64,000 nt of DNA from the IMG/VR virus record IMGVR_UViG_3300028364_000013. One strand, written 5' to 3'. Shown piece after piece: positions 376 to 59,877 of this stretch. This DNA is from a virus. Lineage: Duplodnaviria; Caudoviricetes. The notes beneath the pieces are model-generated. The model had not been told where the DNA came from. It searched no databases and was given only the letters and a program-made list of their open reading frames with translations. The stretch's first letter is position 1. Every line of letters begins with the position of its first letter. The translations under genes and the position numbers were made by a program.

Positions 376-407
376 AAAAAAAAGCCTGAACGTTCAGTCC
401 AGGCTTT
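376..407 (-). terminator. Intrinsic terminator (attenuator) ahead of the Gln tRNA cluster
   Basis: AAAGCCTG-N11-CAGGCTTT followed by T-run. Confidence 0.85.
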
Positions 408-436
408 AAATATTTTTGTTTTATTAACTAAAATGT

Positions 437-517
437 TCAGGCACCACCAGGACTGTCCTCTTTCGAAGATTGTTGCTGCTGTTGCTGCTGTACGTTTATG
501 TTAATTACTGTTTTCAT
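437..517 (-). CDS. Putative attenuation leader peptide, poly-Gln: MKTVININVQQQQQQQSSKEDSPGGA
   Basis: 26-aa ORF read by hand; 7 consecutive CAG/CAA codons; terminator then three tRNA-Gln follow. Confidence 0.85.
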   Translation of the reverse strand: MKTVININVQQQQQQQSSKEDSPGGA

Positions 518-577
518 TACTTTTAAATAGTATTCTTTTTTTGTTTACCAATAATCAGCGTGGTAATCCGCTATTTG

Positions 578-659
578 TGACCCAGGTCGGAGTCGAACCG
601 ACACGTCTTGCGACACACGCCCCTTAAACGTGCGTGTCTACCAATTCCACCACTGGGCC
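578..659 (-). tRNA. tRNA-Leu(AAG)
   Basis: CACGT-TTAAGGG-GCGTG, long variable arm, A73. Confidence 0.85.
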
Positions 660-767
660 AATTTAACCATAACTTAGTAAAGTGCCTCTACCGTTCTACT
701 GTCGAAGTTTGTTCGGGTGTTTACTCGCCTTGATAAGGACTGTCGATTGTTATAATTAATTTCTTAT

Positions 768-780
768 ACGCAAATGTAAT
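768..780 (-). promoter_or_regulatory. Bacteroidota-type sigma promoter -7 element (TACATTTG)
   Basis: Matches TAnnTTTG; similar elements near 4738, 29992, 34985, 36802, 44392, 60041. Confidence 0.65.
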
Positions 781-865
781 ACTTTTGTTTCAATTATTCA
801 ACTCTTTTTTTAATTATTTTTGTCGTAAGCAATAGGGTTCAGAAATTTTTAATATATTTATTGAT

Positions 866-1786
866 ATGAACAAAGAATCTAAAACAGAAAAGTTTATTCA
901 AAAAGCAATTTGTGCTCATGTAGATAGATATGACTATTCTCTATCTAAATATTCAAATTCTAAAATTAAAGTTATAATTATATGCTCAAAGCATGGTCAG
1001 TTTAGTGTAACTCCAGATAATCATATAAATAAAAAATCTGGGTGCCCTAAATGCAATGGTGGGGTTAGATTATCTATCAATGAATTCATTGAGCAATCTA
1101 ACAAATCTCACAATAGCAAGTATGATTATTCTTTAGTAGAATATAAAAATAACGCCACTAAAGTGACAATAATATGCCCAGAGCATGGAAAATTTAAACA
1201 GAGGCCTCAAGACCACATGAACAAACTTGGATGCTCTAAATGTGGCATTAAAAAAAGAGCTAATTCAAGAACTTCAAATGCAGAAGAATTTATTAAAAAA
1301 GCAATTTATACTCATGGAGACAAATATGATTATTCAAATGTTGAGTATAAAAAATCAAACTTAAATGTAACAATAATATGTAATCAACATGGTGAATTTC
1401 AACAAAAACCAAATGACCACCTTAGCAATAAAAATGGCTGTCCTATCTGTTGTGAATCTAAAGGAGAAATTGCAATAAGAAATTTCTTAACAGAAAATTC
1501 AATAAAATTTATACCTCAAAAAAGATTCAAAGATTGTAAAGACAAAAGAACACTTCCTTTTGATTTTTATTTGCCAAAATTAAATCTTTGCATAGAATAT
1601 GATGGCATTCAGCATTTTAATAAAAAAAACAGATACTATTCAGATGACAGAAAGAAAAAAGATGAAATCAAAAATCAATATTGCACAGGCATAAATGATA
1701 AACCTAAAATTTTAAGAATATCTTACCTTGAAATTGATGATATTAATCAAATTCTAACAAACTCTGTCAAACGACAAAAACAATAA
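866..1786 (+). CDS. Putative homing endonuclease: repeated Cys/His zinc-binding modules plus C-terminal PD-(D/E)XK (DUF559/Vsr-like) domain
   Basis: Repeats of YDYS.VEY....KV.IIC..HG.F.Q.P.DH....GC.KC; C-terminal PFDFYLP..NLCIEYDGIQH. Confidence 0.8.
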   Translation: MNKESKTEKFIQKAICAHVDRYDYSLSKYSNSKIKVIIICSKHGQFSVTPDNHINKKSGCPKCNGGVRLSINEFIEQSNKSHNSKYDYSLVEYKNNATKVTIICPEHGKFKQRPQDHMNKLGCSKCGIKKRANSRTSNAEEFIKKAIYTHGDKYDYSNVEYKKSNLNVTIICNQHGEFQQKPNDHLSNKNGCPICCESKGEIAIRNFLTENSIKFIPQKRFKDCKDKRTLPFDFYLPKLNLCIEYDGIQHFNKKNRYYSDDRKKKDEIKNQYCTGINDKPKILRISYLEIDDINQILTNSVKRQKQ

Positions 1787-1796
1787 ATCAAAGAAC

Positions 1797-2045
1797 TTAA
1801 AATAGATTTCTCAAAAAACTTTTTAGTGAGTTGAATCTATTCTTAATATATTTAAAAACGTTAATTTTAGCTACAAAGAAGTATGCTCCAAAAAACGAAG
1901 CTGACAATAGGTAGAAAATAGACATAGTAGTCCAATAATCTCCCGTCCATTTCATCACAACTGCCGTTGCAGCATCGAATCCTATTGGACAAAAGAACAT
2001 TCCCATCATTAGGAACATTATACCTATGTTCTTTCTGTTTCTCAT
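1797..2045 (-). CDS. Small membrane protein
   Basis: Two hydrophobic segments. Confidence 0.6.
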   Translation of the reverse strand: MRNRKNIGIMFLMMGMFFCPIGFDAATAVVMKWTGDYWTTMSIFYLLSASFFGAYFFVAKINVFKYIKNRFNSLKSFLRNLF

Positions 2046-2124
2046 AATCCCCTATACTGTCTGATTCCATTTAATCAAGTTTTGTTAATAATTTTCCACC
2101 AAAAGTGGACTCTTCTATAAATAG

Positions 2125-2796
2125 TTTAAATTCCTTCAACAAGAATTTGATACAGCTAAAAGCGATGACAAACTACCTTGTCAATGCTCAGTTTGCAAAG
2201 AAACTTTTTATCTAACAAAACACCAAACACAAAGAGTATTAAATCCAAATCAACAAAAAAATGGAAATTTTTGTTCTAACAAATGTAGAGCAAAAAACAA
2301 CACTAAAAAAGAAACAATAAATTGCACAAACTGTGATGAAGAATTTGAAAAACAATATAGCCAAATTAAAAAATCAAAAAACCACTTTTGCTCTCTCTCT
2401 TGTAATGCAACCTACAACAACAAACACAAAACCCACGGCACTCGTAGGTCAAAACTTGAAGTTTGGCTGGAGGAGCAGTTAACCAAGCTTTATCCAAATA
2501 TCCAAATAGACTTCAACAAGAAAAATACTATAGAGTCTGAACTTGACATCTATATACCTTCATTAAACCTTGCTGTTGAGCTCAATGGAATCTTTCACTA
2601 TGAACCTATATACGGAGTTGATAAACTCCAGCAGATTCAAGAGAACGACATCTCCAAATCCAAGGCATGTCATGACTTAAAAATCGACTTATGCACCATC
2701 GACACAAGTGGTCAAAAATACTTCAAAGAATCTACTTCCAAAAAATATCTTGACATCATAAATAATATTATCAAAGAACGCATGTTAACCTCTTAG
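2125..2796 (+). pseudogene. Start-less PD-(D/E)XK endonuclease ORF, paralog of 41334..42011
   Basis: Open frame 2125-2796 (FKFLQQEFDTAKSDDKLPCQCSVC...ELDIYIPSLNLAVELNGIFHYEPIYG...KYLDIINNIIKERMLTS*), preceded by in-frame TAG, no ATG near the 5' end. Confidence 0.7.
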
Positions 2797-2852
2797 CCAG
2801 CTTTACCTGTTTCCAACAACCGCTACGTGGAAGCGGGTTAACTTTGGTTGTC

Positions 2853-2943
2853 TACTCCTGGTCGGACTCGAACCGACAACGTTTACCTGCATGGGTATCA
2901 GATTTTAAGTCTGATGCGTTTCAACCAATTTCGCCACAGGAGC
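2853..2943 (-). tRNA. tRNA-Leu(TAA)
   Basis: TCAGA-CTTAAAA-TCTGA, long variable arm. Confidence 0.92.
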
Positions 2944-2952
2944 ATTTGTTTG

Positions 2953-3033
2953 TACAGATAGCGAGAGTCGAACTCGCACGCCTCTCGGCCATAGCTTCTA
3001 AGGCTATTGTGTCTACCATTCCACCACATCTGC
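2953..3033 (-). tRNA. tRNA-Leu(TAG)
   Basis: ATAGC-CTTAGAA-GCTAT, long variable arm. Confidence 0.92.
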
Positions 3034-3046
3034 ATGGCGCTGTAGA

Positions 3047-58963: not shown

Positions 58964-58970
58964 ATTAATA

Positions 58971-59062
58971 TGGCGGAGAGAGAGAGATTCGAACTCTCGA
59001 TACCAGTTTCCCAGTATAACACCTTAGCAGGGTGCCGCCTTCAACCACTCGGCCACCTCTCC
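58971..59062 (-). tRNA. tRNA-Ser(GCT), CCA encoded
   Basis: GCACC-CTGCTAA-GGTGT. Confidence 0.93.
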
Positions 59063-59071
59063 GTATTTTTG

Positions 59072-59144
59072 TGGATTCAGCAGGATTTGAACCTGCAACC
59101 AACCCCTTTGCAAGAGCCGCTCTATCCAGTTGAGCTATGAATCC
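59072..59144 (-). tRNA. Atypical tRNA: GCA anticodon on an Arg-like body
   Basis: D-loop AACTGGATA (A20), A73, loop TTGCAAA in a weak stem. Confidence 0.55.
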
Positions 59145-59166
59145 AAGGGAACCATGTCTTCCCTCT

Positions 59167-59254
59167 TGGCGGTAGATATGGGGTTCGAACCCATGTTCCC
59201 TTTCGGGGCTACCTGTTTAGCAAACAGGCCTCTTTACCATTTGAGTAACCTACC
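59167..59254 (-). tRNA. tRNA-Ser(GCT), CCA encoded
   Basis: CCTGT-TTGCTAA-ACAGG. Confidence 0.92.
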
Positions 59255-59258
59255 AGTT

Positions 59259-59342
59259 GCACGGGGGTGAGGATTCGAACCTCACTCATCTTAAGGGAGC
59301 GACCCCTCAGATTTCCAGTGTAGCTACACTTCAAACCCCGTG
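59259..59342 (-). ncRNA. tRNA-like RNA with aberrant D and anticodon arms
   Basis: CACGGGG/CCCCGTG acceptor, canonical T-arm, palindromic AGTGTAGCTACACT, GAGGG-GTCGCT-CCCTT. Confidence 0.55.
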
Positions 59343-59349
59343 TATATTG

Positions 59350-59438
59350 CGGAGGCGGCAGGATTCGAACCTGCGGACCCCTTTCAGGGCCACTGCTTTT
59401 CAAGAGCAGCGCAATAAACCAGACTCTGCCACGCCTCC
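59350..59438 (-). tRNA. tRNA-Ser(TGA)
   Basis: CTGCT-CTTGAAA-AGCAG. Confidence 0.93.
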
Positions 59439-59443
59439 GTATT

Positions 59444-59611
59444 TCAATTTTCTTCTTTATAACGTTTTATAAAGAACTCTCTTAATTCTTCCTTCCTTTT
59501 AATTGATGCCTTGATTCTCGCCACCTTTTCTGGAGAAGGGTCTGTATCAACTGTAAATTTGATTCCATTTTTCTCACAATAATCTGTCATTTCTTCAAAA
59601 CAATTTTCCAT
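59444..59611 (-). CDS. Small hypothetical protein (start MENCFEEM)
   Basis: ORF between tRNAs. Confidence 0.55.
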   Translation of the reverse strand: MENCFEEMTDYCEKNGIKFTVDTDPSPEKVARIKASIKRKEELREFFIKRYKEEN

Positions 59612-59625
59612 CTTTCTATTTTTTG

Positions 59626-59713
59626 CGGAGGGAGAGGGGGTCAAACCCTCAAGGCCGTTAAGCTCGCTGGGGTTCAAAACCAGTGCAGTCGTCTACTTTC
59701 TGCTTGCCCCTCC
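59626..59713 (-). tRNA. tRNA-Ser(TGA)
   Basis: CTGG-T-TTTGAAC-C-CCAG, long variable arm, G73. Confidence 0.82.
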
Positions 59714-59727
59714 GTATTTTTTGGCAC

Positions 59728-59762
59728 AAAAAAAACCCTAATTCAAAAAGAACCAGGGTTTC
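59728..59762 (-). terminator. Intrinsic terminator (attenuator) ahead of the Ser/Arg/Trp cluster
   Basis: AAACCCTGGTTC-TTTTT-GAATTAGGGTTT plus T-run. Confidence 0.85.
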
Positions 59763-59784
59763 AAATATTTTTATAACAGTATCG

Positions 59785-59877
59785 TTACATAACATTTTGA
59801 CATACCAGTGTTCTTTCCGTAGCTCTATTCGAACTCGAACTCCATCTGGACCATCTATTTGTTATTACTGTTTTCAT
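59785..59877 (-). CDS. Putative leader peptide: MKTVITNRWSRWSSSSNRATERTLVCQNVM
   Basis: 30 aa; core RWSRWSSSS; downstream 5 Ser, 2-3 Arg and 1 Trp tRNAs. Confidence 0.85.
   Translation of the reverse strand: MKTVITNRWSRWSSSSNRATERTLVCQNVM

What the first reader, a model, noticed from the sequence alone, without database searches (positions are those of the whole stretch)
376..59877. Phage tRNA clusters gated by cognate-codon leader peptides: six parallel translational attenuators
Seen in sequence: six times on the minus strand the same layout recurs: promoter, 26-39 aa ORF, intrinsic terminator, tRNA cluster (leaders at 517, 4689, 25647, 29936, 44332, 59877). The middle of each leader is built from the amino acids carried by that cluster's tRNAs: QQQQQQQ to 3 Gln; LSLQFLQLLFVF to Leu/Phe/Val/Arg; CxxxxxCxxC to 2 Cys; NIHTTINNTICNKK to Asn/His/Thr/Lys; PMGYMGAPAADD to Pro/Met/Gly/Tyr/Ala/Asp; RWSRWSSSS to Ser/Arg/Trp. 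In all six, a 6-9 nt block 3' of the sensing codons is complementary to the terminator's 5' arm or loop. Established: this is the geometry of trp/his/leu/pheST leader-peptide attenuation. Inference: stalling on the sensing codons frees the antiterminator and switches on the tRNAs that are in short supply. That gives a homeostatic, possibly anti-defence, response to host tRNA depletion, for example by anticodon nucleases. I know of no described case of attenuators controlling tRNA genes, in phage or host, but I could not search the literature.
Basis: partly seen in the sequence, partly recalled or inferred. Interest (0 to 1): 0.97.

Follow-up and report, generated by a model that had tools for sequence, protein, structure and literature searches.

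The report
Leader-peptide attenuators gating phage tRNA genes
A giant uncultured lake phage puts a tiny "test" gene and a switchable transcription stop in front of each of six tRNA gene blocks. Each test gene is written in the codons read by the tRNAs behind it, so the phage probably makes a tRNA block only when ribosomes read those codons slowly; I found no paper describing this control for tRNA genes.

Summary
On the minus strand, six ORFs of 26-39 codons (starts 517, 4689, 25647, 29936, 44332, 59877) each end 26-34 nt before a strong intrinsic terminator that precedes a tRNA block.

- **Amino-acid match:** the true leader/cluster pairing is the single best of 720 permutations. Every amino acid of each cluster occurs in its leader.
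- **Codon match:** it holds at isoacceptor level. Arg is CGN in the leader before tRNA-Arg(ACG) and AGR before tRNA-Arg(UCU/CCU).
- **Antiterminator:** a segment about 12 nt past the sensing codons, and before the stop codon, is complementary to the terminator's 5' arm. It beats shuffles in 20 of 28 cases.
- **Conservation:** all six leader families recur in six related metagenomic phage lineages, 29 instances in all. They keep in-frame indels and the same composition in a different residue order. Leader content tracks cluster content.

The best explanation is ribosome-mediated (trp/his-type) attenuation that senses the supply of the very tRNAs it controls. There are no expression data, so the switch itself remains inferred. 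Simple folding reproduces it cleanly for only four or five of the six families.

This scan has noted the same design before on other phage DNA. I found no published description.

The parts
767..808 (-). Promoter of the unit that holds tRNA-Leu(AAG), leader A and the Gln tRNAs (conserved box ending TTTGCGTA, Bacteroidota-like TAnnTTTG -7 element)
   Evidence: 12 same-strand copies genome-wide, also before ordinary genes
437..517 (-). Leader A, 26 codons; sensing core is seven Gln codons (CAG/CAA mixed) at 490-470
   Evidence: homologues with 6-9 Gln codons in L101, L102, L103
445..456 (-). Antiterminator 5' strand of unit A (pairs with terminator 5' arm and loop)
   Evidence: dG -14.5, p=0.01; one search shows the sharp switch after the Gln run
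376..404 (-). Intrinsic terminator A (8-bp GC-rich stem, 5-nt loop, T8)
26..364 (-). tRNA cluster A: Gln(TTG), Gln(TTG), Gln(CTG); a fourth Gln lies just beyond the window start
4733..4774 (-). Promoter of unit B
4585..4689 (-). Leader B, 34 codons; core rich in Leu/Phe/Val/Arg at 4659-4624, with Arg as CGT
   Evidence: homologues in L101, L102, L103, L104
4606..4613 (-). Antiterminator 5' strand of unit B (weakest of the six in this window)
   Evidence: (dG -10.1, p=0.04)
4522..4550 (-). Intrinsic terminator B
2852..4468 (-). tRNA cluster B: Phe(GAA), Val(TAC), Leu(TAG), Arg(ACG), Leu(TAG), Leu(TAA), interleaved with an AlkB-like ORF
25537..25647 (-). Leader C, 36 codons with three spaced Cys codons (25599-25570); no promoter of its own, follows a 91-codon ORF
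   Evidence: homologues in L083, L085, L087, L088, L103
25548..25561 (-). Antiterminator 5' strand of unit C
   Evidence: dG -13.0, p=0.04; sequestration falls from about 90% to about 10% right after the last Cys codon
25476..25510 (-). Intrinsic terminator C (11-bp stem)
24523..25384 (-). Genes behind terminator C: RNase H-like (YkuK/DUF458) ORF 25384-24713, then two tRNA-Cys(GCA). No further terminator was found before RtcB (21219-19792).
29988..30029 (-). Promoter of unit D
29826..29936 (-). Leader D, 36 codons; core codons 5-18 are made of Asn/Ile/His/Thr/Lys (29924-29883)
   Evidence: homologues in L082, L084, L086, L088
29856..29873 (-). Region 2 of unit D: pairs with the sensing codons (1:2) or with the terminator 5' arm (2:3)
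   Evidence: covariation A-T / G.T / G-C; dG -18.5, p<0.004; RNAalifold 1:2 hairpin
29771..29797 (-). Intrinsic terminator D
26022..29721 (-). tRNA cluster D: Asn x2, His (D-loop insertion), Thr x3, Lys x2, Ile, odd tRNA-like genes, Met/Ile2(CAT), interleaved with HNH-type ORFs
44389..44430 (-). Promoter of unit E
44213..44332 (-). Leader E, 39 codons; core of 12 consecutive Pro/Met/Gly/Tyr/Ala/Asp codons (44290-44255)
   Evidence: homologues in L108, L109, L105
44223..44242 (-). Proposed antiterminator 5' strand of unit E (supported by masked folding, not by the unbiased duplex test)
   Evidence: E -18.0, 0/300 shuffles; searches are weak for this unit
44153..44183 (-). Intrinsic terminator E
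40984..44075 (-). tRNA cluster E: Pro, Asp, Pro, Asp, Ala(TGC, low score), Tyr, Gly x2, and Met(CAT) at 41058-40984 beyond an opposite-strand ORF
60037..60078 (-). Promoter of unit F; a conserved 38-codon ORF (60021-59905) lies between it and the leader
59785..59877 (-). Leader F, 30 codons; core Arg-Trp-Ser run at 59856-59830, with Arg as AGA and Ser as TCC/AGT/TCG
   Evidence: homologues in L096, L097, L098, L106
59803..59817 (-). Proposed antiterminator 5' strand of unit F (weak in this window, stronger in relatives)
59728..59758 (-). Intrinsic terminator F
57199..59713 (-). tRNA cluster F: Ser(TGA) x2, Ser(GCT) x2, Ser(GGA), Cys, Arg(TCT), Arg(CCT), Trp(CCA, low score)

Best explanation
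These are six ribosome-mediated (leader-peptide) transcription attenuators, and what they control is tRNA genes.

Proposed mechanism:
1. Transcription starts at a phage promoter and runs into a short translated ORF.
2. The middle of that ORF is a 'checklist' of the codons read by the tRNAs encoded downstream.
3. If the ribosome reads the checklist without delay, it moves onto a segment (region 2) that lies about one footprint past the last sensing codon. With region 2 covered, the terminator hairpin forms and transcription stops before the tRNAs.
4. If any of the needed charged tRNAs is scarce, the ribosome lingers on the checklist. Region 2 stays free and pairs with the terminator's 5' arm, and RNA polymerase reads through into the tRNA block. 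In some units it would also read into downstream protein genes such as the RNase H-like gene and RtcB.
5. The new tRNAs relieve the stall, which closes a negative feedback loop.

Leaders that list several amino acids act as OR gates.

Shown from sequence: the anatomy, the codon/anticodon match, the complementarity and its position, and conservation with co-variation in relatives. Inferred: translation of the leaders, the direction of the switch, and the physiological trigger.
For: **1. Anatomy**
- Six short ORFs sit 26-34 nt before strong terminators that precede tRNAs. They are the only such modules on the gene strand of the 195-kb record.

**2. Amino-acid match**
- The true pairing is the unique best of 720 permutations in the window and in two relatives that have all six units. 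It is the best of 24 and of 6 in two further relatives.
- Each leader gives p = 0.002-0.03 against 584 random ORFs.
- No cluster amino acid is missing from its leader in any of 28 instances.

**3. Isoacceptor level**
- Nearly all core codons are cognate to the cluster's anticodons.
- Arg codons are CGN in 9 of 11 cases in B leaders (cluster with Arg-ACG). They are CGN in 0 of 19 cases in F leaders (Arg-UCU/CCU). CGN makes up 9.6% of Arg codons in the phage's genes.

**4. RNA switch**
- Free RNA folds into a leader hairpin plus the terminator.
- With the 5' part masked, all six form an antiterminator of -12.5 to -21.3 kcal/mol, beaten by 0-1.7% of shuffles.
- Over 28 instances, 20 are significant.
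- The best site complementary to the terminator arm lies a median 11.5 nt after the core and 12.5 nt before the stop, in 27 of 28 instances.
- In A, B, C, D and F, sequestration of the terminator arm collapses within 1-2 codons after the last sensing codon as a modelled ribosome moves along.

**5. Relatives**
- I found 29 instances in 7 lineages.
- Indels are in frame.
- Cores keep composition but not residue order in the distant lineages.
- One pair in unit D shows the series A-T / G.T / G-C.

**6. Co-variation of content**
- C-type leaders gain TTR Leu codons where tRNA-Leu(TAA) joins the Cys block.
- The B-type leader has Tyr codons only where a tRNA-Tyr heads the block.
- His and Tyr codon numbers follow tRNA-His and tRNA-Tyr gene numbers.
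Against: - There is no expression, Ribo-seq or 3'-end evidence of any kind.
- The lineages are related, so the 28-29 instances are not independent. Most helix positions are invariant and therefore uninformative. Only one clear double-sided compensatory series was seen.
- Third-codon-position excess is weak: 63/56/79 variable sites, p = 0.12.
- Thermodynamic modelling does not reproduce a clean switch for family E. It is sensitive to footprint assumptions for B and F.
- In D and B the antiterminator can re-form once the ribosome sits on the stop codon. In most units it also forms in ribosome-free nascent RNA. The model therefore needs kinetic coupling that I cannot test.
- When the full terminator is present it is the more stable fold.
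- Leaders A and C lack their own promoters.
- One relative has an extra terminator between the RNase H-like gene and the Cys tRNAs.
- A few tRNAs are not behind any leader: Leu(AAG) at 659-577 and the odd pair at 35741-35997.
Confidence: 0.8

Rival explanations
1. The promoter-proximal terminators are timing devices for a phage-encoded processive antiterminator (lambda Q/N-like or put-like). The tRNA blocks are then expressed only at a set stage of infection, and the short ORFs are incidental.
For: A promoter followed by a short transcript, a terminator and then genes is also the layout of lambda pR'-tR' (textbook knowledge). The promoter type is generic in this phage and also precedes ordinary genes. 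In ribosome-free folding the antiterminator can form anyway, so something else could set the state.
Against: It does not explain the amino-acid and codon match, the in-frame indels, the composition-preserving divergence in relatives, or the constant spacing between core, region 2 and stop. No antiterminator protein or nut/qut-like site was identified, though I did not search for one.
Confidence: 0.06
2. The switch is real and translation-dependent, but it reports general amino-acid starvation or overall translation capacity rather than the supply of particular tRNAs. The clusters are simply co-regulated with translation demand.
For: Ribosome stalling cannot by itself distinguish a lack of amino acid from a lack of tRNA. 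Classical attenuators sense charging (established knowledge). MetRS and other translation genes lie in the same region.
Against: Each leader lists only its own cluster's amino acids. It uses isoacceptor-specific codons that are rare in the phage's genes, with CGN at 9.6% genome-wide. Leader content changes when a tRNA gene joins the block. These features are hard to explain unless the encoded tRNAs themselves are the relevant variable.
Confidence: 0.08
3. The runs of codons act as RNA, not as codons. Either uncharged tRNAs bind them directly (T-box-like), or the short ORFs encode functional micro-proteins.
For: T-box leaders use a codon-anticodon contact to control translation-related genes (established knowledge). 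The cores are the best conserved part of the ORFs.
Against: No T-box or other known leader family was detected, even at permissive thresholds. The aligned ATG, the stop at a fixed distance from the terminator and the in-frame indels all argue for translation. A micro-protein would keep residue order, but distant lineages keep only the composition. The flanks drift freely.
Confidence: 0.03

Closest known systems
Leader-peptide attenuators of amino-acid biosynthesis operons (trpL, hisL, leuL, thrL, ilvL, pheL of enterobacteria)
   Same: There is a short translated ORF with a run of regulatory codons, an intrinsic terminator, and a competing antiterminator whose 5' strand lies about one ribosome footprint past the regulatory codons. 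In units A, D and F the regulatory codons themselves pair with that strand (1:2). Multi-amino-acid leaders resemble the multivalent thrL and ilvL.
   Different: The regulated genes are tRNAs, not enzymes. The signal sensed is the product of the regulated genes themselves. Up to six amino acids are listed per leader, and several synonymous codons per amino acid are sampled to match the isoacceptors. The elements are phage-encoded, in a lineage with Bacteroidota-type promoters and no Shine-Dalgarno sequences. There is no sequence similarity to the Rfam leader families; the only hit is a sub-threshold Leu_leader match at 29772-29853 (25.5 bits against a threshold of 50).
pheST (pheM leader) attenuator of E. 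coli phenylalanyl-tRNA synthetase
   Same: It is leader-peptide attenuation applied to a component of the translation machinery, and it responds to the level of charged tRNA.
   Different: It controls a synthetase rather than tRNA genes, senses a single amino acid, and is a host gene. This comparison rests on my own knowledge and was not tested here.
T-box riboswitches
   Same: They link the state of a specific tRNA to read-through of a terminator upstream of translation-related genes, through a codon-anticodon match.
   Different: T-boxes bind uncharged tRNA directly without translation and have a conserved Stem I, specifier loop and T-box sequence. None of these was detected here, and the elements here are ORFs.
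The same design noted earlier by this scan in other phages
   Same: Notes e1-3411523, e1-5368892, e1-5355741 and e1-4038560 describe short codon-matched ORFs plus terminators before tRNA blocks in flavobacterial-type, giant Bacteroidota and Caulobacter phages.
   Different: Those are unpublished AI notes on other genomes, and I did not re-test them. This genome has six units, the largest number among the notes shown. It also adds isoacceptor-level Arg evidence and cross-lineage co-variation.

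Membership tests
Ribosome-mediated (leader-peptide) transcription attenuator | Short ORF with a start codon between the promoter and the regulated genes | tested here: met
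   There are six ATG-ORFs of 26-39 codons. The ATG, frame and stop are kept in 29 instances from 7 lineages.
Ribosome-mediated (leader-peptide) transcription attenuator | Regulatory codons that correspond to the product of the regulated genes | tested here: met
   The true pairing is the unique best of 720 permutations. Each leader gives p = 0.002-0.03 against random ORFs. Codon/anticodon and Arg CGN/AGR specificity are shown.
Ribosome-mediated (leader-peptide) transcription attenuator | Intrinsic terminator between the leader and the regulated genes | tested here: met
   GC-rich hairpins of 8-11 bp with a T7-8 run, at -11 to -19 kcal/mol. The stop-to-hairpin gap is 23-34 nt in 25 of 28 instances.
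Ribosome-mediated (leader-peptide) transcription attenuator | Mutually exclusive antiterminator that uses the terminator's 5' arm, placed so that a ribosome stalled on the regulatory codons leaves it free | tested here: met
   20 of 28 instances are significant against shuffles. The site lies a median 11.5 nt after the core and 12.5 nt before the stop. A sharp switch is seen in A, B, C, D and F. The evidence is weak for family E.
Ribosome-mediated (leader-peptide) transcription attenuator | Anti-antiterminator or pause hairpin (1:2) involving the regulatory codons | tested here: inconclusive
   In free RNA, region 2 pairs with the sensing codons in A, D and F (8/8, 15/15 and 8/8 nt) and in the RNAalifold consensus of D. 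It does not in C and E. In nascent ribosome-free RNA the antiterminator still forms in most units.
Ribosome-mediated (leader-peptide) transcription attenuator | Read-through that depends on leader translation and on the supply of cognate charged tRNA | not testable with these tools
   This needs reporters, in vitro coupled transcription-translation, Term-seq or Ribo-seq. No RNA run was listed for this DNA.
Rfam leader families (His_leader, Leu_leader, Thr_leader, Trp_leader and others) | Match to the covariance model at or above its gathering score | tested here: not met
   The only hit is a Leu_leader match of 25.5 bits (threshold 50) over terminator D. None passes at the gathering threshold.
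T-box riboswitch | Stem I with a specifier loop and a conserved T-box sequence (Rfam RF00230) | tested here: not met
   There was no T-box hit at E <= 1 anywhere in the window.
Processive antitermination systems (lambda N/Q, put RNA) | A nut, qut or put element and a cognate phage factor | not tested
   I made no search for such factors. This reading does not explain the codon match.

The most novel reading that the evidence does not exclude
The six attenuators together form a phage-borne surveillance circuit for the host tRNA pool, resolved to the level of single isoacceptors. Any shortfall would switch on the matching replacement tRNAs. Such a shortfall could come from a mismatch between host and phage codon usage, or from a host anticodon nuclease or other tRNA-depleting defence. 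Through the same read-through, tRNA-repair genes that lie behind the blocks would also be switched on. Examples are RtcB behind unit C and RNA ligase behind unit F in relatives. The phage would then pay for its roughly 40 tRNAs only in hosts and at moments where they are needed.
Probability: 0.3. Interest if true: 0.95.

Novelty: new variant of a known kind. Interest (0 to 1): 0.9.

Why it matters
- **Regulation of phage tRNAs.** Why large phages carry dozens of tRNA genes, and how their expression is regulated, is an open question. Current ideas (codon-usage compensation, replacement of tRNAs destroyed by host defences or by the phage itself) say nothing about control.
- **A direct feedback loop.** A feedback in which the ribosome tests each codon and transcription of the matching tRNA block follows would be the first attenuation system known to control tRNA genes.
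- **Extending a textbook mechanism.** It would carry leader-peptide attenuation to a new class of targets, to phages, and to a lineage with Bacteroidota-type expression signals.
- **A readable prediction.** The sequence alone tells which tRNAs the phage 'expects' to run short.
- **Possible tools.** The modules are compact (about 150 nt) and programmable, and might serve as sensors of tRNA availability.
- **Directly testable.** The hypothesis can be tested with reporters and with purified translation systems.

Tried and rejected
- **Relatives in the phage collection:** megablast and blastn found only generic tRNA hits.
- **Viral-contig searches:**
  - two single neighbouring proteins gave no syntenic relative;
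  - the promoter pattern gave no hit;
  - a conserved leader-A nucleotide pattern gave seven chance matches without tRNAs.
- **Calls that could not run as intended:**
  - the metagenome loci are not held as records.
- **Expression:** no RNA holder is listed for this DNA. The holders are lake-water DNA metagenomes.
- **Rfam:** no known leader, T-box or riboswitch family was found at permissive thresholds.
- **Codon-position test of purifying selection:** not significant (63/56/79, p = 0.12). I read this as drifting flanks and do not count it as support.
- **Ribosome parked on the stop codon (30-nt footprint):** this gave the expected result only for A and C. It was replaced by a codon-by-codon profile, which is clean for A, B, C, D and F but not for E.
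- **Caulobacter phage phiCbK:** a look at 100-108 kb with my terminator finder, which is tuned to AT-rich DNA, found no module. This is not a test of the earlier notes on Caulobacter phages.
- **Literature:** six searches and one paper checked found no description of attenuators controlling tRNA genes.

Full report
**What the window is.** The window is the reverse strand of positions 76042-140041 of a 195-kb virus record. The same phage occurs on a 364-kb contig and in lake-water metagenomes.
- G+C content is 30-39%.
- ARAGORN finds 37 tRNA genes, all on the minus strand. Rfam and low-threshold ARAGORN add several atypical ones.
- Protein genes in the window include MetRS, RtcB, an FtsH-like protease, an AlkB-like oxygenase, a TnpB-like gene, and HNH endonuclease ORFs between the tRNAs.
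- A promoter-like consensus ending in TTTGCGTA contains the Bacteroidota-type TAnnTTTG element. It occurs about a dozen times on the gene strand, before ordinary genes as well as before tRNA blocks.
- Start codons are preceded by A-rich sequence without a Shine-Dalgarno motif. From general knowledge, both features point to a Bacteroidota host.

**The observation.** Reading the six places confirms six ATG-ORFs of 26, 34, 36, 36, 39 and 30 codons.
- Each ORF ends 26-34 nt before a GC-rich hairpin with a run of 7-8 T, and tRNA genes follow each one.
- I scanned all gene-strand terminators of the 195-kb record. Exactly six are preceded only by a 24-40 codon ORF at that spacing and followed by tRNAs. 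The other terminators close ordinary long genes.
  - Leader A lies behind tRNA-Leu(AAG), which follows the promoter at 774.
  - Leader C has no recognisable promoter. It follows a 91-codon ORF and is followed by an RNase H-like gene before the two Cys tRNAs.

**Is the amino-acid match more than chance?** For each leader I counted the residues whose amino acid has a tRNA in a given cluster, using default ARAGORN calls only.
- The true leader/cluster pairing scores 67. The mean over all 720 pairings is 33, and no other pairing reaches 67. The same holds for the best 12-residue window.
- Against 584 ATG-ORFs of 24-42 codons taken from all frames of the genome, each leader's best window is exceeded by 0.2-3.4%.
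- Every amino acid represented in a cluster is present in its leader.
These are His (a GTG-anticodon tRNA with a 12-nt D-loop insertion at 28931-29015), Ala(TGC) at 42984-43057 and Trp(CCA) at 57199-57277.

**Codon level.** Nearly all core codons are cognate, by standard wobble, to anticodons encoded in the same cluster.
- The leaders sample synonymous codons that correspond to the different isoacceptors present:
  - CAG and CAA for Gln;
  - AAA and AAG for Lys;
  - TCN and AGY for Ser.
- Arginine gives the sharpest case. The block behind leader B encodes tRNA-Arg(ACG), and B-type leaders use CGN for 9 of 11 Arg codons.
- The block behind leader F encodes tRNA-Arg(UCU) and (CCU), and F-type leaders use AGR for 19 of 19.
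- CGN makes up only 9.6% of Arg codons in the phage's long ORFs.
- This points to sensing of particular tRNAs rather than of amino acids in general.

**RNA structure: overall fold and complementarity.**
- Folded as free RNA, each region forms a leader hairpin plus the terminator.
- I then masked the 5' part up to 12 nt past the last sensing codon and left the terminator's 3' arm untranscribed.
  - All six then pair a segment of the leader's 3' part with the terminator's 5' arm, at -12.5 to -21.3 kcal/mol.
  - This is lower than 98-100% of shuffles.
  - Over all 28 instances from seven lineages, 20 are significant.
- An unbiased duplex search over the whole leader, without any mask, gives the following:
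  - It places the best complement of the terminator arm downstream of the sensing core in 27 of 28 cases.
  - The median gap after the core is 11.5 nt, and the site ends a median 12.5 nt before the stop codon.
  - It beats shuffles in 20 of 28.

**RNA structure: ribosome-position profile.** I moved a 29-nt footprint codon by codon along the nascent transcript.
- The probability that the terminator arm is sequestered stays at about 70-100% while the A site is on or before the sensing codons in A, B, C, D and F; B also dips transiently within its core.
- It falls to 1-30% within one or two codons after the last sensing codon in those five families.
- The fall is not seen in family E.
- In A, D and F the partner of region 2 in free RNA is the sensing-codon stretch itself. 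The RNAalifold consensus of the D family shows this 1:2 hairpin next to the terminator.
- Caveats:
  - The terminator is the more stable fold once complete, as in the trp attenuator.
  - The antiterminator also forms in ribosome-free nascent RNA in most units.
  - In B and D it can re-form when the ribosome reaches the stop codon.
  - The model therefore requires kinetic coupling of ribosome and polymerase.

**Relatives.** Neighbouring proteins gave a graded series of metagenomic relatives. I fetched their contigs, plus one 154-kb IMG/VR contig.
- All six leader families recur. There are 29 instances in seven lineages, with neighbour-protein identity down to about 44-52%.
- The ATG, the frame and the stop-to-terminator distance are kept. 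Length differences are in-frame: 6 to 9 Gln codons in A, and 3-, 6- or 9-nt indels elsewhere.
- Residues outside the core drift, and the third-position excess is only weak. A leader peptide with no function of its own would behave this way.
- In the most distant lineages the cores keep their composition but not their residue order:
  - an E-type leader made of Met, Gly, Ala, Tyr, Pro and Asp in a new order, before Pro, Asp, Tyr, Ala, Gly and Met tRNAs;
  - a B-type leader of Val, Arg, Leu and Phe;
  - an F-type leader of Arg, Ser and Trp.
- In each of the two relatives with all six units, the true pairing is again the unique best of 720.

**Co-variation of leader and cluster.**
- Two lineages have tRNA-Leu(TAA) genes between the C-type terminator and the Cys tRNAs. 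Their C-type leader carries a Leu/Cys core with mostly TTA/TTG codons. Lineages without that tRNA have no such run.
- The only B-type leader with Tyr codons precedes the only block headed by tRNA-Tyr.
- Relatives with two tRNA-His genes have two His codons in leader D. The window has one atypical tRNA-His and one His codon.
- Helix covariation is limited because the helices are highly conserved. In unit D, one antiterminator pair runs A-T, G.T, G-C across lineages while the terminator partner stays compatible. Several other changes are wobble-compatible.

**Interpretation.** The simplest account is classical ribosome-mediated attenuation turned onto tRNA genes.
- A ribosome delayed on the checklist leaves region 2 free to hold the terminator's 5' arm, so polymerase reads into the tRNA block.
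- A ribosome that passes the checklist covers region 2, and the terminator forms.
- The product of read-through relieves the stall, so the loop is homeostatic.
- Read-through from D runs into leader C, which makes C a nested second checkpoint.
- No terminator was detected between unit C's terminator and the end of RtcB. In one relative (L082) RtcB directly follows the Cys tRNA; in L084 and L086 small ORFs intervene. Repair genes may therefore be co-controlled, but this is inference.
- The anti-defence reading is attractive but untested.

**Comparison with what is known, and novelty.**
- The mechanism class is that of trpL, hisL, leuL, thrL and ilvL. The pheST leader is the nearest in spirit, and T-boxes are the nearest in the logic of sensing a tRNA.
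- It is not a member of any Rfam leader family or of the T-box family.
- Six literature searches found no report of attenuators controlling tRNA genes.
- This scan's earlier notes describe the same design in other phage genomes. I did not re-test those notes.
- I rate it a new variant of a known kind, of high interest.

Noticed in passing
window 33995-34421 (-): A full-length GOLLD RNA (Rfam RF02032, 169 bits against a threshold of 150). About 1.3 kb upstream of it lie two odd tRNA-like genes at 35741-35813 and 35898-35997. One has a 2-nt 'anticodon' call and the other a 25-nt insertion.
   Followed up: no
just beyond the window end (record position 73284-73490); also L099 6318 and L107 (reverse strand) 1949: An amber-suppressor-type tRNA (anticodon CTA) sits next to a tRNA-Lys. 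In a relative, ORFs with release-factor domains (PCRF, RF-1) lie 2-3 kb downstream of the suppressor. This hints at stop-codon reassignment or its control.
   Followed up: no
window 28931-29015 (-): A tRNA-His(GTG) homologue carries a 12-nt insertion in the D-loop relative to its counterparts in related phages. ARAGORN misses it at default settings.
   Followed up: partly
window 2784-2852 (-): A sub-threshold HDV-like ribozyme hit (RF02682, 35.9 bits against a threshold of 44, E = 0.006) lies immediately 3' of tRNA-Leu(TAA).
   Followed up: no
window 60021-59905 (-): A 38-codon Lys-rich ORF lies between the unit F promoter and leader F. A 41-codon gene is called just upstream of leader F in L096 and L097; in L098 the 41-codon call lies downstream, within the tRNA block.
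   Followed up: no
window 7219-8337 (-): A TnpB / IS605 OrfB-like gene (OrfB_IS605 plus a Cas12f-like TNB domain) sits inside the phage genome.
   Followed up: no
The remaining 63,976 bases are identical.
   Followed up: no
window about 15528 and 15741 (-): Two tandem terminators. The second is preceded by a 28-codon ORF but has no tRNA downstream, so it is not one of the attenuator units.
   Followed up: no
whole window: The six gated blocks divide the amino acids among them almost without overlap:
- Gln
- Phe/Val/Leu/Arg-CGN
- Cys
- Asn/His/Thr/Lys/Ile/Met
- Pro/Asp/Ala/Tyr/Gly/Met
- Ser/Arg-AGR/Trp

No clear tRNA-Glu was found.
   Followed up: partly
L084 1-873 and 6588-7226; L101 1778-3274 and 12481-15112; L108 18394-19461: Related phages carry several aminoacyl-tRNA synthetase genes or fragments (class I Leu/Ile/Val/Met-type, His-type, Tyr/Trp-type) interleaved with the gated tRNA blocks.
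   Followed up: no
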